Assembly: GCA_035632955.1 (NCBI GenBank)
Contig: DASQFU010000048.1
Coordinates: 3,164-67,163 of the forward strand
DNA length: 64,000 nucleotides
From: Candidatus Limnocylindria bacterium
Lineage (GTDB): Bacteria; Eisenbacteria; RBG-16-71-46
Direction: 5' to 3'
Shown piece after piece: positions 5,817 through 60,224 of the stretch; positions within the stretch are counted from its first letter, which is position 1, and every line of letters starts with the position of its first letter. Below the pieces are notes generated by a model. That model searched no databases and was not told the DNA's origin. It worked only from the letters and a program-made list of their open reading frames with translations. A program made the position numbers and the translations under genes.

Positions 5817-6604
5817 CGCGGGTTCCGGGCGAGCGCTTGCTGTAGCTGCATCGCCGCTTCGGTCCATCGTCCCGGGTGGAAGACGTAGCGGCGCTGTATG
5901 CCCGCGATCCGGGGCGCGGGCTCGTCGGTCGCGATGCCGACGCTGCCCCGGCAGAGGCGGCAGGAAAACCCCTTGCCGGCCGCGAGATCGGCGCGAATCC
6001 GGTGCTGGTCCGCGCCCATCCGGAACACCATCGGCACGGCTTCGTCCACCGGGAGATCGGCGAGCCAGGGGTCGCCGAGGCACCACGAAGCGAGCGCCGT
6101 CATGGACAGCGCGACCGTGTCGGGGAGCGCCGCTCGCAGTTCGGCGAGCAGGTCGCGGTAGAAGGGACGCTGCGAGTGCGTGGCGTCGAAGTCGACCTGG
6201 ACCGCAATCACGCCCGGCCGGTGCGCGAGCGACGCCAGCTCAAGGACCGCGCGCCGGCGTTGCGCCAGATCCAACTCGGGCGGTGCATCACGGCGCGTCT
6301 CGATCCTGCCGACCGCAACCAGCCGCGTGCCGGCCGGGACTCGCAGGGGCTGAAATCGCGGCCGCACCGAGACGCGATCTCCGCCGAGCTCGATCGTGCG
6401 CGCGAGATAGGCCACGCCGACTCGGGCCGGATCGATTGCGCGCAGGTCCTGCGGCTGCTCCCAGGCCCACAGGACGAGCGGCGGAATGCGCTCCGCCGGC
6501 AGCGGAAGGGAGACGGCCGGTGTCGGTTTGGCATGCGTGCTCGATGCGAGCGCCGGCAACGTGACCACCGCGAGTGCCAGCGCGCACGCAAGGCGACGAA
6601 ACAT
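5813..6604 (-). CDS. hypothetical secreted protein
   Basis: Signal peptide MFRRLACALALAVVTLPALASS. Translationally coupled to the downstream large secreted protein. Confidence 0.6.
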   Translation of the reverse strand: MFRRLACALALAVVTLPALASSTHAKPTPAVSLPLPAERIPPLVLWAWEQPQDLRAIDPARVGVAYLARTIELGGDRVSVRPRFQPLRVPAGTRLVAVGRIETRRDAPPELDLAQRRRAVLELASLAHRPGVIAVQVDFDATHSQRPFYRDLLAELRAALPDTVALSMTALASWCLGDPWLADLPVDEAVPMVFRMGADQHRIRADLAAGKGFSCRLCRGSVGIATDEPAPRIAGIQRRYVFHPGRWTEAAMQLQQALARNPR

Positions 6605-6614
6605 GCCGGCAGTT

Positions 6615-6694
6615 TAGTGTTCCGAGTCAGAAGTCATACACCTATTCCGGCGGCCCTCGCCGGCATTGGCACCTGATTTCTGACTCGGAACACT
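6615..6694. repeat. perfect 18-bp inverted repeat (TAGTGTTCCGAGTCAGAA ... TTCTGACTCGGAACACTA) with ~44-nt spacer
   Basis: Read directly from sequence. The arms are exact reverse complements. Lies in an intergenic region with locally lower GC. Confidence 0.8.
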
Positions 6695-6811
6695 AGCGGT
6701 CGGCCCGCGTGGGAAAAAGGTGACGGCGGGGGTCGTCGCCACCCCCGCCGTCGAGTGCTCCCGGAAGTGATCGGGGCCGGGAGGCTTGAGGCTCGTGTGC
6801 CCGAAACCGGG

Positions 6812-44189: not shown

Positions 44190-44311
44190 CAGCAGCTGAA
44201 CCCCGGGTCCACCACACCTTGCAGCTTGTTCACGCAGGCCCCGCGCTCGGACTCGGGCGCGGGTCTCTCGTTCCCCTCCTCGGCGTGACGCCAGGCCCCC
44301 GACGGCCGACC

Positions 44312-44698
44312 ATGAGCGCCCAGCATCCGGAACGACTCGCCCGCTGCCACCGGATGACGCGTACCCTGGATTTCGCGTCGATTCGCGCGCGCGGCATCGC
44401 GTATCGCGGACGTCACTGCCTGGTGCTCGCACTCGCTTTGCCGGGCGAGACGACGCGCGTCGCGTTCGTCGCGAGTCGCAAGTCGGTCGGCGGCGCCGTG
44501 CAGCGCAATCGCGCGCGTCGGCGGTTGCGTGAGATCGTGCGGCGGCGCTGGCTGCGCGTGCCACCCACGGGCTACCTGCTCATGTTCGTCGCGTTGCGCG
44601 GCATCCTCGCCGCGCCGCACCAGGAGCTGGCGAGCGACGTCGAGCGCGTGCTGGCCGCCGCCGGAGCTCTGGCCCCGATCGCGCCGGTCGAGGACTGA
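44312..44698 (+). CDS. rnpA: ribonuclease P protein component
   Basis: 'FVASRKSVGGAVQRNRARRRLRE' RnpA signature. Conserved position after rpmH. Confidence 0.85.
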   Translation: MSAQHPERLARCHRMTRTLDFASIRARGIAYRGRHCLVLALALPGETTRVAFVASRKSVGGAVQRNRARRRLREIVRRRWLRVPPTGYLLMFVALRGILAAPHQELASDVERVLAAAGALAPIAPVED

Positions 44699-44699
44699 C

Positions 44700-44909
44700 G
44701 TGCGAGCGCTTGCCGGGTTCGCGATTCGCCTCTATCAACGCTTTGCGCCGCCGTTGCTCCGTGGCGCATGCCGCTACACGCCGAGCTGTTCCTCGTATTC
44801 GCGGGAGGCGATCGAGCGTCACGGACTCTGGCGCGGGCTCGGGTTCGCGCTCCAACGTCTGGCGCGCTGCCATCCGCTCGGCTCGAGCGGCTACGATCCG
44901 GTGCCGTGA
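44700..44909 (+). CDS. yidD: membrane protein insertion efficiency factor YidD
   Basis: GTG at 44700. 'LYQRFAPPLLRGACRYTPSCSSYSREAI' YidD motif. Confidence 0.85.
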   Translation: MRALAGFAIRLYQRFAPPLLRGACRYTPSCSSYSREAIERHGLWRGLGFALQRLARCHPLGSSGYDPVP

Positions 44910-44911
44910 GG

Positions 44912-46720
44912 ATGGAACGCCGCACCCTGATCGTCGTTTTGGCGTGCCTCGCCTTGATGTTCGCCTATCCGTTCCTGCTCAAGTCGTTCGGACTCGATCG
45001 CTATCTCCGTCGCACGCCGCCGCCGCCGGCTGCGGTGGACACCGCGCGCGTCACCGGCGCGACGGACGCCCCGGTCTCCGACACCGCGGCTCCGATCGCG
45101 CCGCCAGTTCCGAGCGCCCAGCTCGGCGCGGTCCCGGTCCGGGCGGCGCAGGCGGAGCTGGAGCGGACGCTCCACATCGACACGCCGCTCTATCGCGCCG
45201 AGTTCTCGAACCGCGGCGCACGCCTGGTGGCCGTCGAGCTGAAACGCTACGCGGCCGCGCACGGCACCGAGCGTCCCGCGCGCCCGGACCGCAATGCCGA
45301 GGTTCCGGCGGCCGACCGCGTCGTGCTGGCCGGCGGCCCGTCGCTCGCCCTCGATCTCGGAGCGGGTGGCGCGCGCCGTTCGCTCGCCGATGCCGCGTAT
45401 GCGGTGCAGGAGAGTCTGGACGCAGCGGGCATGACACGGTCGCTTACGTTCACGCTGCGCGACGCCGAGGGGCTGTTCGTGCGCCAGACCTTCCGCGTCC
45501 GACCGGACGGCTACGCCCTCGACCTCGACGTCGAGATTCGCGGCGTTCCGGCCGGTTGGCGGGTGGCCGACTATTCGCTGACGGCGCGCTCGTGGCCGCT
45601 CGTCAACGAGTCGAACGCGATGGACGACGCCCGCTCACTGCGCGCCACCAGTCTGGTCGGCACCAATCTCCACCGCGAAGGCATGGGTGGAATCAAGCGC
45701 GCGCCGCGAGTCTTCGACGGCGCCGCGACCCTGGCCGCGGTGCAGACCCGCTACTTCGTGGGCGCGGTCGCGGTCGCCCAGGCGACCGGCCGGAGCGTGA
45801 TCTCGCAGTCCGAGGTACGGCGCCTGGACCCGGGGCTGCTCGGGCGCATGCCGCAGGGCAGCCCGGTCACGCAGGAAGTCGCGGTCAACACGCTGGTGGT
45901 GGGATTGCCCGGAGAAACCAATCCGCTCAACCGCTTCGTCGTCTACTTCGGACCCGGCGAGTACATCCGGCTCGCGCGGCTCGGGCACGGCCTCGATCGG
46001 CTCGTCGATCTCGGATGGGCGTGGATCACGCCGTTCAGCAAGGCGCTGCTCCAGCTCCTGGTCTGGCTCCATGGCCTGCTCAAGAACTATGGCGTCGCGA
46101 TCGTTCTGCTCGCGACCCTGGTCCGCGTCGCGCTCCACCCGCTCAACATGATGAGCATGAAGAGCATGCGCTCGATGCAGCGACTGCAGCCGGAGATGGA
46201 GCGGATCAAGGTGAAATACAAGAACGATCCGCAGGCGATGAACACGGCGGTGATGGCGCTCTACAAAGAGAACAAGGTGAACCCCGCGGGCGGGTGCCTG
46301 CCGATCCTGCTTCAGATGCCGTTGTTCATCGCCCTCTACTCGGTGCTGTTCAACGCGATCGAGCTCAGGCAGGCGCCGTTCGCGGCCTGGATCCAGGATC
46401 TGTCCGCGCCCGATCACCTGTTCTCGATCGGTCCGTTTCCGATCCGCGTTCTGCCCCTGGTGATGACCGGCAGCGGGCTCCTGTCGCAGAAGCTGACGCC
46501 GACCGACCCGCGTCAGGCGCCGACCATGTACCTGATGAACGTGATGATGCTGGTGTTCTTCTACAACCTGCCGTCCGGGCTGGTGCTGTACTGGACGGTG
46601 ATGAACCTGCTGACCGCGCTCCAGCAGTGGATGGTGCTGCGGGATGACGGGCCGGCCGCACCGGCCCCCGCCCTGGCGGCCAGCGCCAGACCGGTGGCCA
46701 AGAAAGCCTCCGGGAAGTAA
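44912..46720 (+). CDS. yidC: membrane protein insertase YidC
   Basis: ATG at 44912 with GAGG RBS. N-terminal TM, periplasmic domain and C-terminal 5-TM core 'LPILLQMPLFIALY'. Confidence 0.9.
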   Translation: MERRTLIVVLACLALMFAYPFLLKSFGLDRYLRRTPPPPAAVDTARVTGATDAPVSDTAAPIAPPVPSAQLGAVPVRAAQAELERTLHIDTPLYRAEFSNRGARLVAVELKRYAAAHGTERPARPDRNAEVPAADRVVLAGGPSLALDLGAGGARRSLADAAYAVQESLDAAGMTRSLTFTLRDAEGLFVRQTFRVRPDGYALDLDVEIRGVPAGWRVADYSLTARSWPLVNESNAMDDARSLRATSLVGTNLHREGMGGIKRAPRVFDGAATLAAVQTRYFVGAVAVAQATGRSVISQSEVRRLDPGLLGRMPQGSPVTQEVAVNTLVVGLPGETNPLNRFVVYFGPGEYIRLARLGHGLDRLVDLGWAWITPFSKALLQLLVWLHGLLKNYGVAIVLLATLVRVALHPLNMMSMKSMRSMQRLQPEMERIKVKYKNDPQAMNTAVMALYKENKVNPAGGCLPILLQMPLFIALYSVLFNAIELRQAPFAAWIQDLSAPDHLFSIGPFPIRVLPLVMTGSGLLSQKLTPTDPRQAPTMYLMNVMMLVFFYNLPSGLVLYWTVMNLLTALQQWMVLRDDGPAAPAPALAASARPVAKKASGK

Positions 46721-46866
46721 TCTAGGACTCCATACCCACGGCGGCCGCCGGCAGCGGAACCCTGGTTCTGCGCCGTGATCGGTCGCACAACGATGGTTCG
46801 CGACGCGCAACCGCGCGGGTCCCCTCGAGGTTCGCACTCCCGCGCCGCGCATGCAGAGGTCGAAAC

Positions 46867-48345
46867 ATGGAGCCCAAAGGCTCGATCTTCGAGGGCAAGA
46901 CTCTCGATGACGCCGTTCGCAAAGGTTTGGACGCACTCGGCTTGTCCCGAGCGGAAGTGATGATCACGGTCATGGAGGAAGGCTCGGGCGGCTTCCTCGG
47001 CATTGGCGCCCGCCCGTATCGCGTGCGTGTCATGGCGCGCCCGGGCGGCGCTCTCCCCGAATCCGACGATCGCGGCGGGCGTGGCCGGCCCCGTTCCGGC
47101 CGCAGCGACCGCCAAGACCGCGGGGAATCGCGAGGCCGACCGCGTGGCGAAGGTGGTCGCGGCGGCTCCGAACGCCCGCGCCGCGAGCGGGCGGGAACCA
47201 CGGCGCGCAGCCGCGAGGAGCGTCCGGCCGGAGATTCCAGACGCCGCGCGGGCGCGGATGCGCGGTCGCGAGACGAGCGCCCGAGCGTCGAGCCCCGGCC
47301 ACGAGGCGAGCGAGGCGGCGGCGAGATGCGCCCGCGAGCCGAGCGGTCGGGCGTCGAGCCGCGATCGCGTGGTGAGCGGCCCGACAGCGATTCCCGATCG
47401 CGGGATGAGCGGCCGAGTGGTGAGTTCCGATCGCGTGGTGAGCGGCCGGACAGCGATTCCCGATCGCGTGGTGAGCGGCCGAGTGGCGAGTTCCAATCGC
47501 GCGGTGAGCGCGGTCGGCCCGAGGCTCGACCGCGCGACGAGGCGCAGGGCGCCGATCGGTACCGGAGAGAGGCCCAACCTCCGGCGCCCACTGCGAGCGG
47601 ACCGATAGACGAATCGGCCGAGCCGGGTGAGGGGCCCCGACGCCGGCGGCGCCGCGGTCGTCGCGGTCGCGGGGGCGGAGACTTCGAGGCCACGCCGCGT
47701 CCAGACGCGCGCTCGGAGACCGCGCTCGCCACGGCGCCGATCGCCGAACCGATGGAAGACGCCGAGTCCGGGCGCGAGGACGCGGGCCATTTGCCGCGTT
47801 CTCGTGACGAGGAATCCGGTCGTCGGCCGCGTCCCCGTGACGACGAGTCCCCCGGGATGTCGAGCGAAGCGCTGACGGAGCTCGCCGAGCGGGCGACCCG
47901 CGATCTGCTGAAGGCGATGGGATTCGATGGTCAGGTGACCGGGAAGGCAGACGGCACGACCGTCGAGGTGACGGCCGAAGTGTCCGACGACGAAGAGCTC
48001 CTGACCGGTCGCAAGGGGGAAACTCGCCAGGCGCTCCAGCATTTGCTCACTCGGATGATCAACCGGGGCGAGGGATCGCGCTACCACTTGCAGCTCGAGA
48101 TCAACGACTTCTGGCAGCGGCGTGAAACCGAGCTGGAGGCAATCGCCAAGGGGCTGGCGGAAGAGGCCCTCTCGGGGCAATCGGAAGTTCTCACGGAGTA
48201 CCTCAACGCCCAGGAGCGGCGCATCATTCACGTCACGCTGCGCGAGGACTCGCGCGTGAAGACCTACGCGATCGGCGAGGGGCTCATCAAGAAAGTGGCG
48301 GTGGCTCCCGCCGACTTTCCCGAAGGCGTGAGATCCGAGCCTTAA
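46867..48345 (+). CDS. khpB: Jag/KhpB-like RNA-binding protein (Jag_N + KH + R3H) with long Arg-rich repeat insertion
   Basis: N-terminal 'FEGKTLDDAVRKGLDALG'. C-terminal KH/R3H 'RIIHVTLREDSRVKTYAIGEG'. ~300-aa RG/RS/ER-rich insertion in between. Confidence 0.8.
   Translation: MEPKGSIFEGKTLDDAVRKGLDALGLSRAEVMITVMEEGSGGFLGIGARPYRVRVMARPGGALPESDDRGGRGRPRSGRSDRQDRGESRGRPRGEGGRGGSERPRRERAGTTARSREERPAGDSRRRAGADARSRDERPSVEPRPRGERGGGEMRPRAERSGVEPRSRGERPDSDSRSRDERPSGEFRSRGERPDSDSRSRGERPSGEFQSRGERGRPEARPRDEAQGADRYRREAQPPAPTASGPIDESAEPGEGPRRRRRRGRRGRGGGDFEATPRPDARSETALATAPIAEPMEDAESGREDAGHLPRSRDEESGRRPRPRDDESPGMSSEALTELAERATRDLLKAMGFDGQVTGKADGTTVEVTAEVSDDEELLTGRKGETRQALQHLLTRMINRGEGSRYHLQLEINDFWQRRETELEAIAKGLAEEALSGQSEVLTEYLNAQERRIIHVTLREDSRVKTYAIGEGLIKKVAVAPADFPEGVRSEP
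47281..47530 (+). repeat. in-frame tandem repeats (~60-nt unit; peptide SR[GD]ERP[DS]..S/F..) inside jag
   Basis: Near-identical DNA blocks 'cgatcgcgtggtgagcggcc...' recur 3-4 times. Confidence 0.6.
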
Positions 48346-48451
48346 GCCCGGATCCGAGCGATGTCTTGCGCCGGGCTCGCGTCAGGGGCCCGGCGTTTTG
48401 CATGAGCGCCCGCGGGGGGTTCGCCGTGTTCGCGCTCGATTGGGAGCATGC

Positions 48452-49858
48452 GTGAATCTCGATGACACCATCGCCGCGATCGCGACTGCGCCGGGTGCGG
48501 CGGGGCTCGCGGTCGTCAGGGTGAGCGGGTCTTCGGCGTTGCCGATCGCCGCGGCTGTGTTTCGGGGTGCGGCGCCACTGACCGCCGCCGGCAGCCACAC
48601 GTTGCACCACGGCTGGGCGCACCGGCCTGCGCGGGGCACGCCGGGTGAGCCATCGTCACCGCCAATTGACGAGGTCGTGGCCGCCGTGTTCAAGGCTCCG
48701 CGCTCGTACACGCGCGAGGACGTGGTGGAGATCTCCTGCCATGGTGGCGCGTTTGCCGCGCGTCACGTGCTCGCCGCGCTGCTCGCGTCCGGCGCCCGGC
48801 TCGCGCGTCCCGGTGAGTTCACGCTCCGGGCGTTCATCCATGGCCGGCTCGACCTCGCCCAGGCCGAGGCGGTCGCCGACCTGATCCGGGCCGAGACGGA
48901 ACGCGCGCACGCGCTGGCGCTGGCGCAGCTCGCGGGGGCGCTCTCGCGCCGGCTGGATGCGATCGGCGAGCGGATCGCCGACGCCGTCGCCGAGGTCGAG
49001 GCACGCGTCGACTTCGCAGAGGACGTCGGCGGCATCGAGGTGCCGCCGCACGTGGTCGCGGCGATCGCCGCGGTCGACGCCGAGCTGGCCGAGCTGCTCG
49101 CGGGCTCTGCTTACGCGCGCGCGGTGCGCGAAGGCGTGCGCGTGCCACTGGTCGGCCGGCCGAACGTCGGCAAGTCGTCGCTGTTCAACGCGCTGCTCGG
49201 CGAGGAGCGCGCGATCGTCACGCCGATCGCCGGCACGACGCGAGACCGCGTCAGCGAGGCGATCGAGATCGCCGGCATCCGCGTCACGCTCTCGGACACC
49301 GCGGGCCTCCGAGAGGACGCAGAGAACGTCGAAGCGATCGGCATCGCAGTCGCGCGCCAGGCAATCGCGCAGAGCCCGGTCGTGTTGTGGGTCGTGGACG
49401 GCTCGGAGCCGCTCGGCGACGAGGATCGCGCCATCGCCGCGCGGCTGCCGGGCAAGCGCGTGTTGGTCGCGCTCAACAAGATCGATCGGGGCCGGACGGT
49501 GCATCGCGAGGACGTCGAACGATTGCTCAACGGCGCGCCGCGCCGGACGGTCATGGTCTCGGCGGCTCGCGGCGAGGGACTCGCCGACCTTCACCGCGCG
49601 CTGGCCGAGCTGCTGGACGTCGGACCGGAGCGCGGCGCGACCGGCGGTGCGCTCGGCAATCTGCGTCATGCCGAAGCGTTGGAGCGAGCGCGGGAGGCAC
49701 TGGCGCGAGCGCGCAGTGCGGCCGGGGAGCGCATGCCCGGGGAGATCGTCGCGATCGAGCTGCGCGAAGCGCTGCACGCGATCGGCGAAGTGACCGGTAA
49801 GAGCGCCGGCGAGGACCTGCTGGAGCGCATCTTCAGCCGCTTCTGCGTGGGGAAATGA
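48452..49858 (+). CDS. mnmE: tRNA modification GTPase MnmE
   Basis: GTG at 48452 with GGGAG RBS. '[11 protein letters not shown]' N-domain. G1 '[10 protein letters not shown]'. C-terminal 'CVGK'. Confidence 0.9.
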
Positions 49859-51786
49859 CGAGCGAACCGAGGACGAACGGCAGCGGGTCCGCAACCGCCG
49901 AGCTCGACTTCGACGTGGTCGTGGTCGGGGCGGGCCACGCAGGCTGCGAGGCCGCGGTGGCGTGCGCGAAGCTCGGCCTCCACACGGCGTTGGTCACGGT
50001 GAAGCTCGAGGACACCGCGAAGATGTCGTGCAACCCCGCGATCGGCGGGATCGGCAAGGGCCACATGGTGCGCGAGATCGACGCGCTCGGCGGCATCATG
50101 GGCATCGTCACCGACCGGGCGGGAATTCAGTTCAAAATGCTGAACCGCGGGCGTGGGCCGGCGGTCTGGTCGCCGCGCGCGCAATGTGACAAGGCCCGGT
50201 ACTCCGAGGAGATGACCCGGCTCCTCGACTCTGTCACGGGGCTCGTGCGGGTCGCGGGGGTCGTGAATCACGTGCGCCTGGAGCGTGGCCGCGTCGCCGC
50301 GCTCGAGCTGGCGGACGGGCGTGCCCTGCGCTGCCGCGCCGCCGTCATCACGCCCGGCACGTTCCTGAACGGCTTGATTCACGTCGGCGAGCGGCAGATC
50401 GAAGGCGGCAGGATCGGCGAGCACGCGGCGCGCGCGCTGAGCGAGTGCCTGGCCGAGCTCGGGCTCGAACGCGGCCGGCTGAAGACCGGCACGCCGCCAC
50501 GGCTGCATCGCGACACCATCGACTGGGATGGGCTCGTGCCGCAGCCGGGCGACGAGCCGCCGGTGCCGTTTTCGCACTGGACCGAGCGCCTGCAGTTGGA
50601 TCAAGTGCTCTGCCATCTGACCGCGACCAACGAGCGCACGCACGACGTCATCCGGCGCAACCTGCACCGCTCGCCGCTCTACTCGGGCCAGATTCGCGGC
50701 ACTGGGCCTCGTTACTGCCCGTCGCTCGAGGACAAGGTGGTGAAGTTTCCGGAGCGGCCCTCCCACCACATCTTCCTCGAGCCGGAAGGCCGCGCCGTGG
50801 TGGAGACGTACGTGAACGGTGTGTCGTCGAGCATGCCCGAAGACGTGCAGCTCGAGTTCATTCGCACCATCCCGGGCCTCGAGCGCGCGGAGATGCTGCG
50901 GCCCGGCTACGCGGTCGAATACGACTTCGTGCTGCCTCATCAGCTCAAGCCCACGCTCGAGGTGAAGCACGCCCCGGGGCTGTTCCTTGCGGGCCAGATC
51001 TGCGGCACGTCGGGCTACGAGGAAGCCGCCGCCCAGGGCCTCGTGGCCGGCATCAACGCCGCGCAAGCGGTGCGCGGCGGCGAGGGATTCGTCTTGCGCC
51101 GCGATCAGGCGTACGTCGGTGTGCTGGTCGACGACCTCGTCTCGCGCGAGCACCACGAGCCCTACCGGATGTTCACGTCGGCCGCCGAGCACCGGCTCCT
51201 GTTGCGCGCGGACAACGCGGACGAGCGGCTCGCTGAGATCGGCTTCCAGCTCGGACTGCTCGGACGCGAGCAGGTCGAGCTGGTGCGCGCGAAGCAGGCC
51301 GCGATCGAGGCCGAGGCGCAACGACTGGCCAAGGTCACCGTGAGCGTGGCGTCTTCGCATGCCGACGGCGCCGCAGGATCGCCGGCGCTCAAGCCGGTCG
51401 CCGCGCTGGAGCTGCTGGCGCGGCCGGACGGCTCGTACCGGCGGCTCGGAGAGCTCGGCATCGCGACCGAGCTTTCCGAAGCCTGGGGCGAATGCCTCGA
51501 AGTGCGGATTCGCTATCACGGCTACATCGTGCGCCAGCGGCGGACCGCCGAGCAGGCGCAGGCGCTCGAGCACGTGCCGCTTCCCGAAGCACTGTGGGAC
51601 CAGGAGCTGAACGGATTGTCGCGCGAGGCGCGCGAGAAGCTGGTGCGCTGGCGGCCGTCGACGGCGGCGCACGCATCCCGCATTGCCGGCATCTCGCCTG
51701 CGGATGTCGCGGTGCTGTTGGTGCACGCGCGCCGCCTGAGCGGGCGCGAGACCGCCGCGAGCCGTTCCGTTACCGGGGTCACCTGA
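49855..51786 (+). CDS. mnmG: tRNA uridine 5-carboxymethylaminomethyl modification enzyme MnmG
   Basis: ATGA-coupled to mnmE. FAD motif '[14 protein letters not shown]'. Confidence 0.95.
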
Positions 51787-51822
51787 TTCGAGTCACGCTT
51801 CTCGAGCGACGGTCAACGAAAC

Positions 51823-51849
51823 GGGCGGAAGCCACATCGGCTCCCGCCC
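51823..51849. terminator. hairpin between convergent mnmG and secreted-protein gene
   Basis: GGGCGGAAGCC-loop-GGCTCCCGCCC, one mismatch in an 11-bp stem. Confidence 0.4.
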
Positions 51850-51867
51850 GTGCGCTAAAACGACCGA

Positions 51868-52779
51868 CTAACGATAGCGAGTCTTGACCGTTCCAAAGCT
51901 CGTCTCTTCGACGGCGGTCGGGCCGCAGGTCGCCCCGAGGTTGCCGTTGTTGTACTGGTCGAGCTTGTTCTTGTTGGTCTGAACCGAGCTCGAGCTCAGA
52001 AAACCCGAGCCGATCGGCGGCACCACGAGACTGCCGATCTGCGCGTCGGCGGCCGTCACGTAGCTGGCGATCTGCGCCGGGCTGCCGCCGTTGGCGAGGT
52101 TGAGCTTGGTCGCGATCAGCTGCTGGGCCAGCATTACGAGCCCGTTGCCGTGCGCCGGCTGGCCGAGAATCGCCAGGAGCTGCGTCTGGTTGTATGTCAC
52201 GGTTCCCAACGTCAGCGACGCGACCGGCCACTGCGAGGGATGGTTCTTCCAGTAACCCTTCGAGTGAATGCAGCTCTCTTTGTTGATCGTGGCACCGCCG
52301 GTGGTCTCGGAGAACAGGCTGGCCTCGCCGCCGGCATCACCCAAGGTGCGGACGCGGAACACGTACTCGGTGCTCGGCTCGAGCTCGACGTTGTAGTCGG
52401 TGAAGATGCCTTCCTCGCCGAACATGTCGCCGATCTCGGCCGACACCACACCGTGTGGGCCCACGAGGAAGCTGCCGTTGTCGGGCAGCGGGTTGTAGGT
52501 CGGCGTGCCCGTAAGCTCGCAGATGTAGGCCGGGTCATAGGGTCCGCCCGAAACCGGCCAACCGGTCGCGAGGTCATAGGCTTCCTGCGTCGTCCACTCG
52601 ATCAGGAATCCCGCCGGCGCGCCGCTTTGGCCGGCCTGGATCTGGAGCGTGATGGACCTCGCGCTCACTTCGGCGATGGAGAGAGTCGGAACGTCGTACG
52701 AGGTCTGTGCGTGCGCGGGCACACCGCCGATTGAAACCAGAAGAGCGGCTGCAACCGCAAAGCTCGGTAGCTTGATCAT
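51868..52779 (-). CDS. secreted hypothetical protein (C-terminal ...TSFGTVKTRYR)
   Basis: Signal peptide MIKLPSFAVAAALLVSIGGVPAHA. C-terminal tail matches the motif of the 28566..30090 paralogs. Confidence 0.65.
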   Translation of the reverse strand: MIKLPSFAVAAALLVSIGGVPAHAQTSYDVPTLSIAEVSARSITLQIQAGQSGAPAGFLIEWTTQEAYDLATGWPVSGGPYDPAYICELTGTPTYNPLPDNGSFLVGPHGVVSAEIGDMFGEEGIFTDYNVELEPSTEYVFRVRTLGDAGGEASLFSETTGGATINKESCIHSKGYWKNHPSQWPVASLTLGTVTYNQTQLLAILGQPAHGNGLVMLAQQLIATKLNLANGGSPAQIASYVTAADAQIGSLVVPPIGSGFLSSSSVQTNKNKLDQYNNGNLGATCGPTAVEETSFGTVKTRYR

Positions 52780-53371
52780 GGATGCGTGTCCTCCTGAGCT
52801 CTGCTTCGTCGAACAGAAACAACGCCCGAGTCGACGCTCCGTGCGAGACGGATGCCGACCATGGCGACTGGAAACCCTTGGGATCTTGGCCCGCTCCGCA
52901 CTCAGGATGGCGACGGCCTGCCGCCGGGAAGGCGATGGTCCGAGCGGAACCTCGAATAACGGCCAGATGGTCGCCGCGCGTAAGCCCTAAGTCAAGCCAC
53001 AATGTGCTTCTGCACGAAATCACACTGGCAGTTGCGGCAACTGGACGGACTGGGGTGGACGGGCGACTCCATCAGCCGGGAATGAAACGCAAGAAGTGCG
53101 GTGCATGCTAAGGTGCCGCCGCATGCGCGCCCGGCCGGTAAGAAAGCCAAAGTCTTCGAGCTCATCCGCCTCTCGAGGTGGTAGAACGCGCAGGTCCGCG
53201 CCGGTTGGATCGGGGTCCGCGCGGGGAACGGTTGCCACACGTGGTCCGGCGCGCTCCCGAAGCGTTGCCGGAAGAGACGGCTCGCGCAGTGCTCCGGCCA
53301 GCCGTGGCGGGCGCGGTCCGGCGGCTCGTCCCTTCGCGCGCAGGTCTCGCCCTCCCCTCGATCCACGGCGC

Positions 53372-54028
53372 CTGATCACCGCTCAGCCATGGAACTCGCT
53401 GATTCCGCTATTGGAGAAGGCAGGCGCAGATTCAGCGTCGACGGTGGAGCGGTTACGGGATTACGGACAGTTGCTGTTGGAGTGGAATCGCACCGCCTCG
53501 AATCTCGTGTCTCGCGACGACGAATCCCGGCTGGTGGAACGCCATATTCGCGAGTCGTTGGAGCCGATCGCGTGGCTCATGGAGAGCGGATGCCAGCGAT
53601 GGCTCGACGTGGGATCCGGCGGCGGATTTCCGGCCATACCGCTCGGGATGGCTGGAGTGACGGGAAAGTGGACTTTGGTGGAATCGCGCAGAAACAAGGC
53701 GCTGTTTCTCGGCAAAGTCGTTCAAGTCCTTGGATTGAAGAACTTCGAGGTCATCAACGACCGGGTCGAGATTCTGGCGGAAGACCAGGCGCGCCAGGCG
53801 ACATTCGACGCAGTAACGTCACGAGCAACCATGAGGCTGACCCCAACCCTGCTCGCGGTCGAGCCGCTGGTCGAGCCGGGAGGAACGGCGTTCTTGTGGA
53901 AGGGAAGCCGTCATCTGGAAGAGATCGAGGCAGCGAAAAAGTCAGCGCCGAAATGGCGGCACGTGACGAGCATGACGCTATCAAACGGCACCAATGCCGT
54001 TGCTAGATTCTTGAAATCTCATGACTAG
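53372..54028 (+). CDS. rsmG: 16S rRNA (guanine527-N7)-methyltransferase RsmG; start codon unresolved
   Basis: 'LLLEWNRTASNLVS', 'LDVGSGGGFPAIPL' SAM motif and 'GKVVQVLGL' match RsmG. No in-frame ATG/GTG upstream of the conserved N-terminus. CTG at 53372 or TTG at 53411 are the only options. An ATG at 53389 lies in the -1 frame. Confidence 0.75.
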   Translation: MITAQPWNSLIPLLEKAGADSASTVERLRDYGQLLLEWNRTASNLVSRDDESRLVERHIRESLEPIAWLMESGCQRWLDVGSGGGFPAIPLGMAGVTGKWTLVESRRNKALFLGKVVQVLGLKNFEVINDRVEILAEDQARQATFDAVTSRATMRLTPTLLAVEPLVEPGGTAFLWKGSRHLEEIEAAKKSAPKWRHVTSMTLSNGTNAVARFLKSHD

Positions 54029-54169
54029 GCCATATTCGAGTCGTAGTGTTCCACGTGCAACAAATCGATTGCCTGATCCTCCCTGGTCAAATAACTTCAG
54101 CCTCCGAAGTTCGCCGCTACAGGATGCTCCTCGAATGGTGGGCATGAAGTCCGCCCCACGACCAAGGGA

Positions 54170-54928
54170 ATGGGACGAGTCATCGCGGTTGCCAGCCAGA
54201 AGGGCGGCGTCGGAAAAACCACGAGCGCGATCAATCTGGGTGCCTGCCTGGCCCAGGAGGGACGTCGCACTCTGCTCGTGGACATCGATCCGCAGGCGAA
54301 CGCGACCAGCGGCCTTGGGATCAATGGCAACAATCAGCGGTCCACGACCTACGAGTCGCTGATCGGCCAAGCGGAGCTTGCCGCCGCGATCACCCCGACC
54401 GCCCTGGCGAATCTCGATCTGGTGCCATCGGCTCAGCGACTTTCGGGCGCCGAGGTCGAGCTGGTTGGCGTCATGGCCCGCGAGACGCGACTCAAGACCT
54501 GCCTGGCGTCGGTGCGATCTGACTACGACTTCGTGTTGATCGACTGTCCACCTTCGCTCGGGCTGCTTACGGTCAACTCGCTCACCGCCGCCGACTCGGT
54601 CTTGATCCCGCTCCAATGCGAGTACCTCGCCCTCGAGGGGCTGACCCAGCTCATCGGCGCGATCCGGCTGGTCCAGGATCACCTGAACCCCGGGCTTCGG
54701 ATCGAAGGCGTTCTGCTGACGATGTTCGATGCGCGCGTGAATCTCTCCCAGCAGGTCGCCGACGAAGCGCGGAAGTTCTTCGCCGAAAGGGTCTACAAGA
54801 CTGTAATTCCAAGAAATGTGCGTTTGAGTGAGGCTCCGTCGTTCGGCAAGCCAATCGTTCTGTACGACCCCAACAGCAGCGGCGCCGACAGCTACCGTCA
54901 ACTGGCGCAGGAGGTGATCGATGCATAG
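54170..54928 (+). CDS. parA: chromosome partitioning ATPase ParA/Soj
   Basis: ATG with AAGGGA RBS. 'VASQKGGVGKTT' deviant Walker A. Confidence 0.9.
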   Translation: MGRVIAVASQKGGVGKTTSAINLGACLAQEGRRTLLVDIDPQANATSGLGINGNNQRSTTYESLIGQAELAAAITPTALANLDLVPSAQRLSGAEVELVGVMARETRLKTCLASVRSDYDFVLIDCPPSLGLLTVNSLTAADSVLIPLQCEYLALEGLTQLIGAIRLVQDHLNPGLRIEGVLLTMFDARVNLSQQVADEARKFFAERVYKTVIPRNVRLSEAPSFGKPIVLYDPNSSGADSYRQLAQEVIDA

Positions 54929-55772
54929 GAAGGCATTGGGCCGGGGCTTGGAGGCGCTCATTCCCGGCGGCTCCACGGAAGTCGCCGATCGTGACACGGA
55001 CGTGCAGCTCCTCCTGCTCGAAGAGGTTGGACCGAACCCATTCCAGCCGCGCACGCGTTACGACCCGGAGGCGCTCAACGAGCTCGCCGCCTCGATCAAG
55101 GCGACAGGCGTCCTCCAACCGGTGCTGGTTCGGCATGCCGTCGCGGGCGGCTATGAGCTGGTCGCGGGCGAGCGGCGACTCAGGGCGGCGCGCGCCGCAG
55201 GTCTCGAGCGCATTCCCGCCTTGCTTCGCCAGGTCGGCGACGACGAGATGATGGAGTTGGCGCTGATCGAGAACATTCAGCGCGAGGACCTCAATCCCAT
55301 CGACGAGGCGAAGGCCTATCAGACCCTGATCGGGCGCATCGGGTTGACCCATGATCAGATCTCCGAGCGGGTTGGAAAGCAGCGCAGCACGATCACGAAC
55401 GCGCTCCGGCTGCTCGGCCTCCCGGTCGAGGTTCAGGAGATGGTTTCACGTGGAACCTTGTCGTCCGGACACGCGCGAGCGCTTCTGGGCTTGGAGACTC
55501 CAGGCGACCAGCTCACGACCGCCCGCTACGCCCATTCGAAGGCGTTCTCCGTGCGCCGAACGGAAGCGTTCGTCCGCCGCAAGCTGCGCCGCCAGCATTC
55601 GCGCCCGAAGTCGCAACGCAAGACCGGACTGGAAGATTGGGAGAACAAGCTGCAGCAGAAGTTCGCGACGCACGTGACGATGACGCCCGGGCGCAAAGGC
55701 GGAAAGGTCGAGTTCGAATACTACGGTCAGGAAGACCTCGAACGGCTTCTCGAGGCTTGGGGAGTCCTATGA
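54921..55772 (+). CDS. parB: chromosome partitioning protein ParB/Spo0J
   Basis: Overlaps the parA stop. 'GERRLRAARAAGL' ParB box. HTH region. Confidence 0.9.
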   Translation: MHRKALGRGLEALIPGGSTEVADRDTDVQLLLLEEVGPNPFQPRTRYDPEALNELAASIKATGVLQPVLVRHAVAGGYELVAGERRLRAARAAGLERIPALLRQVGDDEMMELALIENIQREDLNPIDEAKAYQTLIGRIGLTHDQISERVGKQRSTITNALRLLGLPVEVQEMVSRGTLSSGHARALLGLETPGDQLTTARYAHSKAFSVRRTEAFVRRKLRRQHSRPKSQRKTGLEDWENKLQQKFATHVTMTPGRKGGKVEFEYYGQEDLERLLEAWGVL

Positions 55773-58556: not shown

Positions 58557-59015
58557 TCAGCTCGCGCGCGCCAGATCAGCCAGCGGCCGGTGGATGTTCC
58601 CCAGTCGCGCACGAACCCGCGCGAGCCGAGCCGGGCTCACCGTCTCGACCGCATAGCGCTCGTCCCAGACCAGATTCCCTCCCAGCCAGACGCGCAACTC
58701 GGGATAGCGCTCGAGCAACGCGACGCCACTGCGACCCTTCATCTCGCGCACGGCGCTCGCGACGCTGTGCGCGGGCCGCAACCCGAACAGCACATGAAGG
58801 TGATCCTGAGCGATCGCCAGCTCGACCAGCTCGATTTCCCGTTCCTCGCACAGAGCGGGGATCAGCTCCTGGAGCGCTTGCACGTGGCGGTGCCTGAGTA
58901 CCGGCTTTCTTCCGCGCGTGGCCCACGACACCAGGTAATGGAGCCGACTGCGATAGACGGGCTCCCATCGCACACGCACGGCAGCATTCAGTTCGGGAGC
59001 CAGTCCGAGTTTCAC
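58557..59015 (-). CDS. IS200/IS605-family Y1 (HUH) transposase-like protein, RAYT-type
   Basis: GTG at 59015 with GGAGGG RBS. The ORF-track start at 59114 would translate the upstream motif. 'YRSRLHYLVSW..RKPVL', 'DHLHVLF' HUH motif and 'WDERYAVETV' catalytic Tyr are typical of PF01797. Single copy, no second IS ORF. Confidence 0.7.
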   Translation of the reverse strand: MKLGLAPELNAAVRVRWEPVYRSRLHYLVSWATRGRKPVLRHRHVQALQELIPALCEEREIELVELAIAQDHLHVLFGLRPAHSVASAVREMKGRSGVALLERYPELRVWLGGNLVWDERYAVETVSPARLARVRARLGNIHRPLADLARAS

Positions 59016-59035
59016 GATACCCTCCGGTTCTCTAC

Positions 59036-59051
59036 GTGCACATACGTGCAC
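59036..59051. promoter_or_regulatory. GTGCAC-N4-GTGCAC motif upstream of the RAYT-like gene (candidate LexA operator)
   Basis: GTGCACATACGTGCAC read from sequence. The same architecture occurs upstream of lexA. Confidence 0.4.
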
Positions 59052-59110
59052 TTGATGGGACCGAAAAAGCGGGAGCCACGGCTCCCGCAGATCTCGGCCA
59101 ATCCGTGTGG

Positions 59111-59713
59111 TCAACGCCCCACGGTTCGGATCACTCCTCTGACGACACCCAAAATGCTGAACTCGGAATCTTCGCCGACCAGAATCGGTTGGTACTTCGA
59201 ATTGGCGGCCACCAGCTCGATGCCATCACCTCGCGGCTGGTAATACTTCACGGTCGCTTCATCCCCGAGCAGTCCGACGACGATCTCGCCGGCATTCGCC
59301 CGATTCTGATGACGCACGATGACGTAGTCACCTTCGAGGATACCCGCCTCGATCATGCTGTCGCCTCGGATCTTGAGCGCGAACAACCCTTCGGGATTCC
59401 CGAACAGTTGGCCGGCTTCGAGGTTTCCGTCGTAGCTCTCTTCGGCGAGGATGGGCTGTCCTGCGGCGACCCGGCCGAGAATCGGGATCCCGGCGCGTTC
59501 CGGATACAAGGACACCGCGATCATGCCGCGGGAGAGCTTGCCGGTGCGCTTGAGGTGTCCGCTCTTCTCGAGCAGGTTGAGGTAGTAGCGAACCCCGTTC
59601 GTGGAAGAAATCTCGAACGCTTCACCGATCTCGCGGATCGTTGGGGGAAAGCCGTGGTCGCGCGTGAAGCGTCGAATGAAGTCGAGAATCGCACGCGCTC
59701 GATCGTTCAACAT
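59111..59713 (-). CDS. lexA: LexA repressor
   Basis: ATG at 59713. N-terminal wHTH 'LNDRARAILDFIRRFTRDHGFPPTIREIGEAF'. 'GDSM' Ser and 'VVGLL..K' Lys of the S24 peptidase dyad. Confidence 0.9.
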   Translation of the reverse strand: MLNDRARAILDFIRRFTRDHGFPPTIREIGEAFEISSTNGVRYYLNLLEKSGHLKRTGKLSRGMIAVSLYPERAGIPILGRVAAGQPILAEESYDGNLEAGQLFGNPEGLFALKIRGDSMIEAGILEGDYVIVRHQNRANAGEIVVGLLGDEATVKYYQPRGDGIELVAANSKYQPILVGEDSEFSILGVVRGVIRTVGR

Positions 59714-59755
59714 GGCTCGCGCTCCTTCGTGGGACCCGGCACGCGGCGAACCGTA

Positions 59756-59771
59756 GTGCACACGCGTGCAC
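59756..59771. promoter_or_regulatory. GTGCAC-N4-GTGCAC motif upstream of lexA (candidate LexA operator)
   Basis: GTGCACACGCGTGCAC lies 43 nt upstream of the lexA ATG. It also overlaps a CGAAC-N4-GTGC element. Confidence 0.45.
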
Positions 59772-60224
59772 CGAGTCAAGTAATGATGTGGGGGCCGGAG
59801 CACTTCGGCCACAACAAGGATAGCCCGAGCGCTTGCTCGCCGCGAGAAAACTTCTACGCCGCTCGCCGCAAGTCAGGCGGTACGTCGCCGCTCTGGTGAC
59901 AGGAGTCGCAACGCCGTGGACATGCGCCGGCGTGGCTGCGTGCTTTCGATCGAGCGCGGAGAAACGCCATTGTCGTCGATGTCGCACCGGTTTGAGGCGC
60001 GCGCGCGGCACATTCGACGCACATGGCCCGCCGGTTGCCCTACTGAGGCAACGAGGTCGAAAGACCTCGAACCACGACAGGCAAGGGGCGGCGGCCGGGT
60101 TAGCGGAGGTTGATCGCAATCGGGGGCCGATTGGCCGAAGCGAGCTCACCACCGCTGCCTTGTCGGTCGGGGATTCCGTTGTGAGGGTCGAGCCCTGGAA
60201 AACGCCGCCGCACGTCTCGTCGAT

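What the first reader, a model, noticed from the sequence alone, without database searches (positions are those of the whole stretch)
58557..59800. lexA translationally coupled to an IS200-like HUH (RAYT-type) transposase gene; shared GTGCAC-N4-GTGCAC motif before both
The lexA stop (59111-59113) is followed within ~95 nt by a single-copy IS200/IS605-family Y1 transposase-like gene. That gene has a strong GGAGGG RBS and GTG start at 59015. The 16-nt pattern GTGCAC-N4-GTGCAC occurs 43 nt upstream of lexA (59756..59771) and again between lexA and the transposase-like gene (59036..59051). This suggests a lineage-specific LexA operator and SOS control of a domesticated HUH nuclease.
Basis: partly seen in the sequence, partly recalled or inferred. 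Interest (0 to 1): 0.75.

Follow-up and report, generated by a model that had tools for sequence, protein, structure and literature searches.

The report
LexA-controlled transposase relic lacking its tyrosine
Next to the DNA-damage repressor gene lexA sits a single-copy, phylum-wide conserved relative of IS200 transposases that has lost its catalytic tyrosine; it has its own copy of the probable LexA operator, so it looks like a co-opted damage-response gene rather than a mobile element.

Summary
The sequence facts hold. lexA is 59713..59111 (-). A 152-aa Y1_Tnp-fold gene is 59015..58557 (-). GTGCAC-N4-GTGCAC occurs exactly twice in 64 kb, once before each gene, against 0 expected.

Two parts of the reading fail. 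The genes are not translationally coupled: the 95-nt spacer holds a strong intrinsic terminator and then the second box. The protein is not RAYT-type; it is closest to IS200/IS605 TnpA.

In 49 of 49 species-level genomes found with the Y1 protein as query, mostly Candidatus Eisenbacteria, the layout is the same. TTGAC, then TGCAC-N4-GTGCA, then TAnnnT precede lexA. A terminator follows, then TGCAC-AT-NN-GT[T/G]CA, then GGAGG and a GTG start.

The HUH motif is invariant, but the catalytic Tyr is Arg in the window and in all 49 orthologs. The gene is single-copy, and its dN/dS (~0.24) is comparable to that of lexA (~0.31).

Best reading: an autoregulated lexA plus a separately LexA-repressed, domesticated TnpA derivative that cannot transpose by the canonical mechanism.

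Not shown: LexA binding, the box at other SOS genes of this phylum (a recA scan found none from Eisenbacteria), the second promoter, and the protein's activity.

The parts
59774..59779 (-). -35 element of the lexA promoter (TTGACT)
   Evidence: TTGAC is conserved at this position in the aligned lexA upstream regions of 48 related loci. Read directly.
59756..59771 (.). Box 1: GTGCAC-GCGT-GTGCAC, the putative LexA operator in the spacer of the lexA promoter
   Evidence: One of only two exact matches in the window, 0 expected. [C/G]TGCAC-N4-GTGCA[C/G] occupies the same place in 48 of 49 relatives; the remaining one has GTTCA.
59750..59755 (-). -10 element of the lexA promoter (TACGGT)
   Evidence: TAnnnT directly follows the box in the relatives. 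The simple promoter scan did not call it.
59111..59713 (-). lexA (200 aa)
   Evidence: Pfam LexA_DNA_bind plus Peptidase_S24. TIGR00498 at 173.8 bits. The Ala-Gly site (VAAGQP), the Ser (GDSM) and the Lys (TVKYY) are read in the translation.
59064..59088 (-). Intrinsic terminator after lexA: GCGGGAGC-CGTG-GCTCCCGC plus TTTTT
   Evidence: A hairpin with a CGGGAG/CTCCCG stem base and a T-run follows lexA in every relative, while such terminators are rare elsewhere in these genomes.
59036..59051 (.). Box 2: GTGCAC-GTAT-GTGCAC, the putative LexA operator of the Y1-like gene
   Evidence: Exact match. [C/G/T]TGCAC-AT-NN-GTTCA occurs in 46 of 49 relatives, GTGCA in 1 and GTACA in 1. It lies ~12-16 nt after the terminator T-run.
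59020..59025 (-). Shine-Dalgarno sequence GGAGGG of the Y1-like gene
   Evidence: GGAGG before a GTG start is conserved in the relatives.
58557..59015 (-). IS200/IS605 TnpA-derived gene (152 aa): HUH kept (D71-H72-L-H74), catalytic Tyr replaced by Arg137
   Evidence: Pfam Y1_Tnp 1.6e-21. PDB alignments place R137 opposite ISDra2 Y132. AF2 model pLDDT 81.8; the best fold matches are ISDra2 and IS608 TnpA. Arg at this position in the window and all 49 orthologs.

Best explanation
This is a two-unit DNA-damage module that is conserved across Candidatus Eisenbacteria.

Unit 1 is an autoregulated lexA. A LexA dimer binds the palindrome TGCAC-N4-GTGCA, which fills the spacer between the TTGAC (-35) and TAnnnT (-10) elements and so blocks RNA polymerase. 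A strong intrinsic terminator ends this unit.

Unit 2 begins about 13 nt after the terminator with a second box of the same type, followed by GGAGG and a GTG start. It encodes a 152-aa derivative of an IS200/IS605 TnpA. After DNA damage, RecA-stimulated self-cleavage of LexA would release both units. The Ala-Gly site and the Ser/Lys dyad needed for that cleavage are present.

The protein keeps the TnpA fold and the metal-binding HUH histidines. It has Arg where the nucleophilic Tyr should be, and it lacks the Gln metal ligand. It therefore cannot make the covalent 5'-phosphotyrosine intermediate with the canonical residue and is not a transposase. I infer that it is a co-opted single-strand or hairpin DNA-binding factor, possibly a hydrolytic one, that is made only under SOS conditions.

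Shown here: the anatomy, its conservation, the loss of Tyr, single copy, and purifying selection.
Inferred: that LexA is the binder, that damage induces the gene, and what the protein does.
For: - Motif specificity. There are 2 exact matches in the window against 0 expected. A weight matrix built from the sites finds no hit at site strength (17 bits or more) in ~590 kb of window plus 49 loci other than the two sites per locus; only two weak hits of 12.6 bits appear elsewhere.
- Conservation. All 49 of 49 genomes recovered with the Y1 protein as query have lexA directly upstream on the same strand. All have both boxes, the terminator and the SD-GTG start.
- Box 1 lies exactly between TTGAC and TAnnnT.
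- In three relatives, 27-45 nt are inserted between box 2 and the SD. Box 2 keeps its distance to the terminator, which fits a promoter-proximal operator.
- A divergent relative (P0125, 43% identity) also has Arg at the Tyr position. It too lies after a lexA 3' end, a terminator and a TGCCC-GGAT-GTTCA box.
- Tyr-bearing relatives are not linked to lexA.
- Tyr to Arg. HUH is invariant.
- The fold matches ISDra2 and IS608 TnpA.
- There is one copy per genome, including one complete 4.16-Mb chromosome.
- dN/dS is ~0.24 for the Y1-like gene and ~0.31 for lexA.
- The same palindrome type sits in promoter positions of recA in other lineages.
- There is a precedent for LexA control of an HUH transposase promoter: ISCR elements in E. 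coli (PMC13393415).
Against: - No binding data exist.
- No canonical SOS gene of Eisenbacteria could be examined. The one metagenome scan for box plus recA 5' end returned six loci, none from Eisenbacteria. So recA of this phylum probably lacks a consensus box within about 5-65 nt of its start, or was missed.
- No sigma-70-like promoter is recognisable between the terminator and the Y1-like gene. Transcription could therefore come from read-through instead.
- The whole neighbourhood is syntenic, from the TonB receptor through parAB to rsmG. Adjacency alone is therefore weak evidence of functional linkage.
- The role of Arg137 and His142 is unknown, so a non-canonical catalytic activity cannot be excluded.
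Confidence: 0.68

Rival explanations
1. lexA and the Y1-like gene form one operon with an internal attenuator. The Y1-like gene has no promoter of its own. It is expressed only by read-through of the terminator from the lexA promoter, and LexA bound at box 2 acts as a roadblock.
For: No sigma-70-like -35/-10 pair can be found between the terminator and the GTG. Both genes are on the same strand and 84-169 nt apart in all loci.
Against: The terminator is strong (7-8 GC pairs plus T5) and conserved. A second operator would be largely redundant if the lexA promoter were the only source of transcripts. Box 2 keeps a fixed distance to the T-run rather than to the SD, as expected for a promoter element.
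Confidence: 0.2
2. The palindromes are not LexA operators. They are hairpin recognition sites for the TnpA-like protein itself on single-stranded DNA or RNA, or sites for another regulator. The pairing with lexA would then be a by-product of local synteny.
For: TnpA-family proteins recognise imperfect hairpins. Box 2 in most relatives (TGCAC..GTTCA) would form an imperfect hairpin. A conserved hairpin also precedes the gene. The neighbourhood as a whole is syntenic.
Against: Box 1 sits precisely in the -35/-10 spacer of lexA, the classic geometry for an autoregulated repressor. The same palindrome type sits in recA promoters of lineages where no Y1-like gene was seen nearby. LexA boxes of related form are known (own knowledge).
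Confidence: 0.07
3. It is an ordinary IS200/IS605 insertion, or a decaying remnant of one, that happened to land beside lexA.
For: Public annotation calls it 'IS200/IS605 family transposase'. It passes the NCBIfam IS200 cut-off.
Against: It occupies the same position in 49 species, with one copy each. dN/dS is ~0.24. No right end is possible, because the stop lies 2 nt from the convergent EamA gene. The window holds no repeats or second copies. The catalytic Tyr is absent in every member.
Confidence: 0.02
4. It is a RAYT (TnpA_REP) that maintains REP/REPIN repeats.
For: It is single-copy and vertically inherited, as RAYTs are.
Against: The REP_Tyr_transpos model scores 34.5 bits against a cut-off of 80. 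The RAYT structure 4er8 is a much weaker fold match than ISDra2 or IS608 TnpA. There is no Tyr and no Y---NP motif. No repeated palindromes are found in 64 kb.
Confidence: 0.02

Closest known systems
IS200/IS605-family TnpA (ISDra2, IS608, IS200), the Y1 HUH transposases
   Same: Same fold and the best sequence and structure matches. The HUH motif, the W..SY strand and the size of ~150 aa are shared. A hairpin/terminator lies upstream of the gene, as at the IS200 left end (the IS200 comparison is from my own knowledge).
   Different: The catalytic Tyr is replaced by Arg and the Gln metal ligand is lost. The published superfamily survey found HUH and Tyr motifs in all classes (PMC6006769). No IS ends and no extra copies are present, and the position is fixed across the relatives found.
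RAYT / TnpA_REP (domesticated Y1 transposase of REP elements)
   Same: A domesticated, single-copy, vertically inherited member of the same superfamily.
   Different: It scores below the family cut-off and is a weaker fold match. It has no REPs and no catalytic Tyr. RAYTs are not known to be LexA-controlled (own knowledge).
LexA-repressed HUH transposase genes of ISCR1/2/8 in E. coli (PMC13393415)
   Same: An HUH-superfamily transposase-type gene with a LexA site at its promoter.
   Different: ISCR elements are mobile, catalytically competent IS91-like elements. Here the gene is fixed, chromosomal and lacks the Tyr.
Genes placed beside lexA in other SOS systems (lexA-sulA in Pseudomonas, yneA in Bacillus, lexA-dinB in Geobacter; own knowledge)
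   Same: A small damage-induced gene next to lexA with its own or a shared LexA box.
   Different: The protein family is unrelated. A TnpA-fold protein has not, to my knowledge, been described in this position, and no paper in the library links LexA with Eisenbacteria.
LexA boxes of Fibrobacter succinogenes (TGCNC-N4-GTGCA) and Myxococcus xanthus (CTRHAMRYBYGTTCAGS), and the Gram-positive/Verrucomicrobia GAAC-N4-GTTC type
   Same: A 14-16 bp palindrome with a 4-nt spacer. Box 1 fits the Fibrobacter consensus. Box 2 in most relatives (CTGCAC-ATYY-GTTCA) fits the Myxococcus consensus.
   Different: Those consensuses are recalled from memory (Mazon et al. 2004; Campoy et al. 2003) and could not be checked in the paper library. 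Only the Verrucomicrobia motif was read (PMC4951493). Binding in Eisenbacteria is untested.

Membership tests
IS200/IS605 TnpA (Y1 HUH transposase) | Y1_Tnp domain and TnpA fold | tested here: met
   Pfam PF01797 at 77 bits. NCBIfam transpos_IS200 at 76.4 bits, above the cut-off of 55. Foldseek top hits are ISDra2 and IS608 TnpA.
IS200/IS605 TnpA (Y1 HUH transposase) | HUH metal-binding motif | tested here: met
   D71-H72-L-H74. H72 and H74 are invariant in 37 aligned members and in 48 of the 49 orthologs; the remaining one, L025, has Arg at the first His.
IS200/IS605 TnpA (Y1 HUH transposase) | Catalytic Tyr on the C-terminal helix in a Y---Q context | tested here: not met
   R137 aligns with ISDra2 Y132, and I141 aligns with Q136. 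Arg is present in the window and in all 49 orthologs and in P0125. More distant relatives keep the Tyr. The Y---Q context is taken from PMC6006769.
IS200/IS605 TnpA (Y1 HUH transposase) | Mobile element: left and right ends with subterminal hairpins, several copies, variable location | tested here: not met
   There is one copy per genome, at the same syntenic site in 49 genomes. The stop lies 2 nt from the convergent EamA gene. The window holds no repeats of the region. Only the upstream hairpin is present.
RAYT / TnpA_REP | Family HMM above cut-off, and a Y---NP motif | tested here: not met
   REP_Tyr_transpos scores 34.5 bits against a cut-off of 80. There is no Tyr or NP on the helix.
RAYT / TnpA_REP | Flanking and genome-wide REP/REPIN palindromes | tested here: not met
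   No repeated palindromic family is found in the 64-kb window. Only this window and 12-kb loci were available, not whole genomes.
SOS regulon member (LexA-repressed gene) | A canonical, self-cleaving LexA is encoded | tested here: met
   HTH plus S24 domains. TIGR00498 is above its cut-off. The Ala-Gly site, Ser and Lys are present in the translation.
SOS regulon member (LexA-repressed gene) | The same palindrome lies in the lexA promoter (autoregulation) and before the gene, and is conserved in relatives | tested here: met
SOS regulon member (LexA-repressed gene) | The same box occurs at canonical SOS genes (recA, imuA-imuB-dnaE2, uvrA) of the same lineage | tested here: inconclusive
   No SOS gene lies in the window or in the 49 loci. 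The metagenome scan for box plus recA found recA loci of other phyla only.
SOS regulon member (LexA-repressed gene) | LexA binds the box, and the gene is induced by DNA damage | not testable with these tools
   This needs EMSA or ChIP and expression data.

The most novel reading that the evidence does not exclude
The Tyr-to-Arg HUH protein is a new kind of SOS effector. It would be a transposase-derived, metal-site-bearing protein that binds single-stranded or hairpin DNA at damaged forks, or cuts it hydrolytically. Together with lexA, it would form the conserved core of a very small Eisenbacterial LexA regulon, possibly nearly all of it, since recA appears to lack the box. The conserved hairpin between the two genes would be the relic left end of the ancestral IS and could still be its recognition site.
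Probability: 0.25. Interest if true: 0.75.

Novelty: new variant of a known kind. Interest (0 to 1): 0.6.

Why it matters
The locus gives a testable operator and a first regulon member for the SOS system of Candidatus Eisenbacteria. I found no paper linking LexA with this phylum.

It also shows a domestication route for IS200/IS605 transposases that differs from RAYTs. The fold and the HUH metal site are kept, the nucleophile is lost, and the gene is placed under what looks like the damage repressor's control. If the protein acts on single-stranded DNA at stalled forks, it would be a new SOS function.

On the practical side, hundreds of database entries in this family are annotated as 'IS200/IS605 family transposase'. 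For this clade that annotation is probably wrong.

Tried and rejected
- Longer ORF starting at the TTG that overlaps the lexA stop. This would be true translational coupling. Rejected because the extension is not conserved.
- RAYT identity. Rejected.
- Active or decaying IS. Rejected.
- Sigma-54 promoter reading of the box (TGGCAC-N5-TTGC). Rejected by inspection: the first position of the GG dinucleotide is T, the second element is shifted by one base, and box 1 lies between a clear -35 and -10 (inference).
- Anti-phage defence role. No PADLOC hits.
- RNA element. No Rfam family matches anywhere in the window.
- Search for other boxes near lexA. None reach site strength in ~590 kb. The two weak hits (12.6 bits, in L021 and L025) were not conserved between loci.
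- Search for SOS genes in the neighbourhoods. None found. The neighbours are a TonB receptor, EamA, a PDZ protease, bactofilin, parAB, rsmG, mnmG, UbiA, RibA and others.
- Attempt to reach Eisenbacterial recA. The pattern scan returned Chloroflexota-like, Myxococcota-like, one betaproteobacterial chance hit and one unknown. A 'Limnocylindria' RecA locus has no box. A 'Zixibacteria'-labelled RecA is 91% identical to that Limnocylindria RecA.
- Literature check of the Fibrobacter and Myxococcus consensus sequences. They were not retrievable in the library.
- Promoter for the Y1-like gene. None could be recognised.
Full report
**Observation**

On the minus strand, lexA runs from 59713 to 59111 and encodes 200 aa. 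It matches LexA_DNA_bind and Peptidase_S24 and the TIGR00498 lexA model at 173.8 bits. The translation contains the Ala-Gly cleavage site (VAAGQP), the Ser (GDSM) and the Lys (TVKYY).

Ninety-five nucleotides downstream, after GGAGGG, a GTG at 59015 opens a 152-aa ORF that ends at 58557. It matches Pfam Y1_Tnp at 1.6e-21.

GTGCAC-N4-GTGCAC occurs at 59756-59771 and 59036-59051. These are the only two exact matches in the window, and none of 100 dinucleotide-preserving shuffles had any match. The coordinates and the motif are therefore correct and not due to chance.

- The spacer between the genes is not a coupling region. It contains a strong intrinsic terminator, GCGGGAGC-CGTG-GCTCCCGC followed by TTTTT, at 59088..59064. 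Box 2 follows it.
- A longer ORF from a TTG overlapping the lexA stop exists in the window. In relatives the two genes sit in all three relative frames, and in-frame stops lie in the spacer in 26 of 50 loci. The GTG (45 loci) or ATG (3 loci) after GGAGG is the conserved start.
- The label 'RAYT-type' fails. NCBIfam REP_Tyr_transpos scores 34.5 bits against a cut-off of 80, whereas transpos_IS200 scores 76.4 against a cut-off of 55. The RAYT structure 4er8 is a far weaker fold match than ISDra2 or IS608 TnpA.

**Lineage and conservation**

A scan of one genome per species found orthologs of the Y1-like protein (54-70% identity) in 49 assemblies. Most are titled Candidatus Eisenbacteria. There is one locus per assembly, including a complete 4.16-Mb chromosome.

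All 49 have lexA immediately upstream on the same strand, and the anatomy is the same everywhere:

- Before lexA: an A/T-rich stretch, TTGAC, 3-4 nt, [C/G]TGCAC-N4-GTGCA[C/G], then TAnnnT. The palindrome therefore fills the -35/-10 spacer. It is exact in 48 of 49 relatives; one has GTTCA.
- After the lexA stop: a hairpin with a CGGGAG/CTCCCG stem base and a T-run.
- About 12-16 nt later: [C/G/T]TGCAC-AT-NN-GTTCA. The right half-site is GTTCA in 46 of 49 relatives, GTGCA in one and GTACA in one; the window itself has GTGCA.
- Then, in most relatives, TCCCCGCAGGAGG and a GTG start.

A weight matrix made from these sites finds no hit at site strength (17 bits or more) in about 590 kb of window plus loci, other than the two sites per locus. 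Only two weak, non-conserved hits of 12.6 bits appear elsewhere.

Canonical terminators are otherwise scarce in these genomes. I found 36 mostly weak candidates in ~520 kb, none sharing the conserved GGGAG stem of the post-lexA hairpin.

Three relatives carry 27-45 nt inserted between box 2 and the SD. Box 2 stays fixed relative to the terminator, which fits an operator at a promoter rather than an element of the translation start.

**The protein**

- HMMER alignments to ISDra2 TnpA, its Y132F mutant and DR_0177 all put Arg137 opposite the catalytic Tyr132, and Ile141 opposite the metal-ligand Gln136.
- The Tyr position is Arg in the window and in all 49 orthologs. In 37 aligned family members the position is at least 90% conserved as Arg.
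- In those 37 members D71, H72 and H74 (the HUH motif), L138 and H142 are invariant, as are W117, D118, R120 and Y121. One of the 49 genome orthologs, L025, has Arg in place of the first HUH histidine.
- The extreme C-terminus has a conserved [W/L/F]A-x-AS tail.
- An AlphaFold model (pLDDT 81.8) has the TnpA topology. Its best PDB matches are ISDra2 and IS608 TnpA, with TM-scores of ~0.65-0.8.
- In a library of 1.8 billion representatives, the family is essentially one tight cluster at 249 bits. The next relative scores 137 bits, and the rest score below 93 bits.
- The 137-bit relative, P0125 (43% identity), also has Arg at the Tyr position, and its HUH motif is degenerate. It too lies just after a lexA 3' end, a terminator and a TGCCC-GGAT-GTTCA box.
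- All the more distant relatives examined keep the Tyr. The two I looked up are not next to lexA.
- The 2018 survey of this superfamily reports HUH and Tyr motifs in all classes: Y---Q, Y---NP and Y----Q (PMC6006769). This clade departs from every described class.
- dN/dS is about 0.24, against about 0.31 for the lexA C-terminal domain in the same genomes.
- The stop codon lies 2 nt from the convergent EamA gene, so there is no room for a right end. The window has no second copy and no REP-like repeats.

**Is the palindrome a LexA box?**

The arguments for it are these:

- Its position inside the lexA promoter spacer matches the near-universal autoregulation of lexA.
- It is strictly conserved while the flanking bases vary.
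- It recurs before one neighbouring gene only.
- Related palindromes occur at recA in other lineages.

It returned six loci, and all six are recA genes.

- One is a betaproteobacterial chance hit that has its own CTGT-N8-CCAG box.
- The other five have the palindrome in a promoter position.
- By their nearest named homologs, the RecA of L054 is Chloroflexota and that of L055, L057 and L059 is Myxococcota or deltaproteobacterial. The lineage of the fifth, L058, is unknown.
- In the Chloroflexota group the recA promoter reads TTGAC-N2-3-TG[C/T][A/C/T]C-N4-GTGCAG-TAnGGT. This is the same architecture as the Eisenbacterial lexA promoter.

From memory, box 1 fits the Fibrobacter succinogenes LexA box (TGCNC-N4-GTGCA; Mazon et al. 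2004). Box 2 in most relatives fits the Myxococcus xanthus box (CTRHAMRYBYGTTCAGS; Campoy et al. 2003). I could not verify either in the paper library. The operator is therefore better described as one more member of a known continuum of 4-nt-spacer LexA boxes than as a lineage-specific invention.

**Caveats**

- No Eisenbacterial recA was returned by the scan, although Eisenbacterial contigs are common in that collection; many 'jgi' homologs appear. Either recA in this phylum has no consensus box within about 5-65 nt of its start, or the pattern missed it. Lack of recA regulation is known in several phyla (PMC4951493).
- No SOS gene lies in the window or in the 49 loci. Regulon-wide enrichment is therefore untested.
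- The whole region is syntenic and is probably origin-proximal: rnpA, yidC, mnmE, mnmG, parA, parB, bactofilin, PDZ protease, EamA, the Y1-like gene, lexA and a TonB receptor. Adjacency alone therefore says little. The shared box and the lexA linkage of the divergent P0125 lineage carry the argument.
- No sigma-70-type promoter is recognisable for the Y1-like gene. Read-through with a LexA roadblock remains a live alternative for how it is transcribed.

**Mechanism proposed**

LexA represses its own promoter through box 1. The terminator insulates the downstream gene from the basal lexA transcription that is needed to maintain the repressor. Box 2 keeps the TnpA-derived gene off until LexA is cleaved after damage.

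The protein has no nucleophilic Tyr, so it cannot transpose by the canonical mechanism. It retains the HUH site plus a conserved Arg and His on the former catalytic helix. I therefore infer a single-strand or hairpin DNA-binding role, possibly a hydrolytic one, at damaged forks.

The conserved C-terminal A-x-A-S tail could be a degradation or interaction tag; this is inference only. The conserved hairpin in front of the gene mirrors the left-end hairpin/terminator of IS200 (own knowledge) and may be a relic of the ancestral insertion.

**Comparison and novelty**

LexA control of HUH transposase promoters has been shown for mobile ISCR elements in E. coli (PMC13393415). Domesticated Y1 transposases are known as RAYTs.

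This case differs from both. It is a fixed gene conserved across all the relatives found, it lacks the Tyr, and it carries a copy of the lexA operator. No paper in the library links LexA with Eisenbacteria. I rate it a new variant of a known kind, with an interest of about 0.6.

Noticed in passing
window 6615-6695 (minus strand context 6594-6760): A near-perfect long hairpin with 38-nt arms and a 5-nt loop. The RNA fold of 6600-6710 gives -59.1 kcal/mol with z = -6.7. It lies between a terminator (~6752) and the ATG (~6594) of a large secreted-looking protein gene. It is richer in A/T than its surroundings and matches no Rfam family. Its function is unknown.
   Followed up: partly
L002-L050, 5'UTR of lexA (about -50 to -15 of the ATG); window 59714-59749: The lexA leaders of the relatives carry a conserved GTGCCRGGTYC followed by a covarying hairpin (GGTCC...GGACC). 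The window's leader is ~14 nt shorter and lacks the 3' arm. Together with the box and the -10 region, GTGC cores recur at ~10-bp phasing. This could mean extra LexA half-sites or an RNA element.
   Followed up: no
window 59064-59088; the same position in L002-L050: The stem sequence of the post-lexA terminator (CGGGAGC/GCTCCCG) is conserved across the 49 relatives, with only a few compensatory variants. Canonical terminators are otherwise rare in these genomes. It may be more than a generic terminator, for example a relic IS left-end hairpin or a protein recognition site.
   Followed up: partly
L054:5850-5925, L060:2900-3000, L062:2900-3000: recA promoters of Chloroflexota-labelled contigs read TTGAC-N2-3-TG[C/T][A/C/T]C-N4-GTGCAG-TAnGGT. 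This architecture is almost the same as the Eisenbacterial lexA promoter. It suggests a shared or laterally transferred LexA specificity between distant phyla.
   Followed up: partly
L055, L057, L059 (recA upstream): Myxococcota-like recA genes carry TGCAC-N4-GTTCA overlapping the putative -10 region. This is the same asymmetric half-site pair as box 2 in most Eisenbacteria.
   Followed up: no
whole window (public record of P0001): The exact protein is deposited as coming from a 'Candidatus Limnocylindria bacterium' MAG (Chloroflexota), yet its orthologs and synteny are Eisenbacterial. Several other TPA soil MAG contigs among the orthologs carry odd labels (Saccharimonadaceae, Gemmatimonadales, Methylomirabilota). 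A 'Zixibacteria'-labelled RecA is 91% identical to a Limnocylindria RecA. Mis-binning or mislabelling is likely.
   Followed up: partly
window 44219-55772: The cluster rnpA, yidC, mnmE, mnmG, parA and parB lies within ~15 kb of lexA. This gene set is typically origin-proximal (own knowledge). The position of oriC was not determined.
   Followed up: no
L002-L050, -25 to -8 of the Y1-like start: The leader TCCCCGCAGGAGG is conserved at the nucleotide level, well beyond what an SD needs, in most relatives. In the window it is replaced by GAACCGGAGGG.
   Followed up: no
window 58557-58571 (C-terminus of the Y1-like protein): The extreme C-terminal tail [W/L/F]-A-x-A-S is conserved in all orthologs and follows a linker of variable length. 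It may be a degron or an interaction motif.
   Followed up: no
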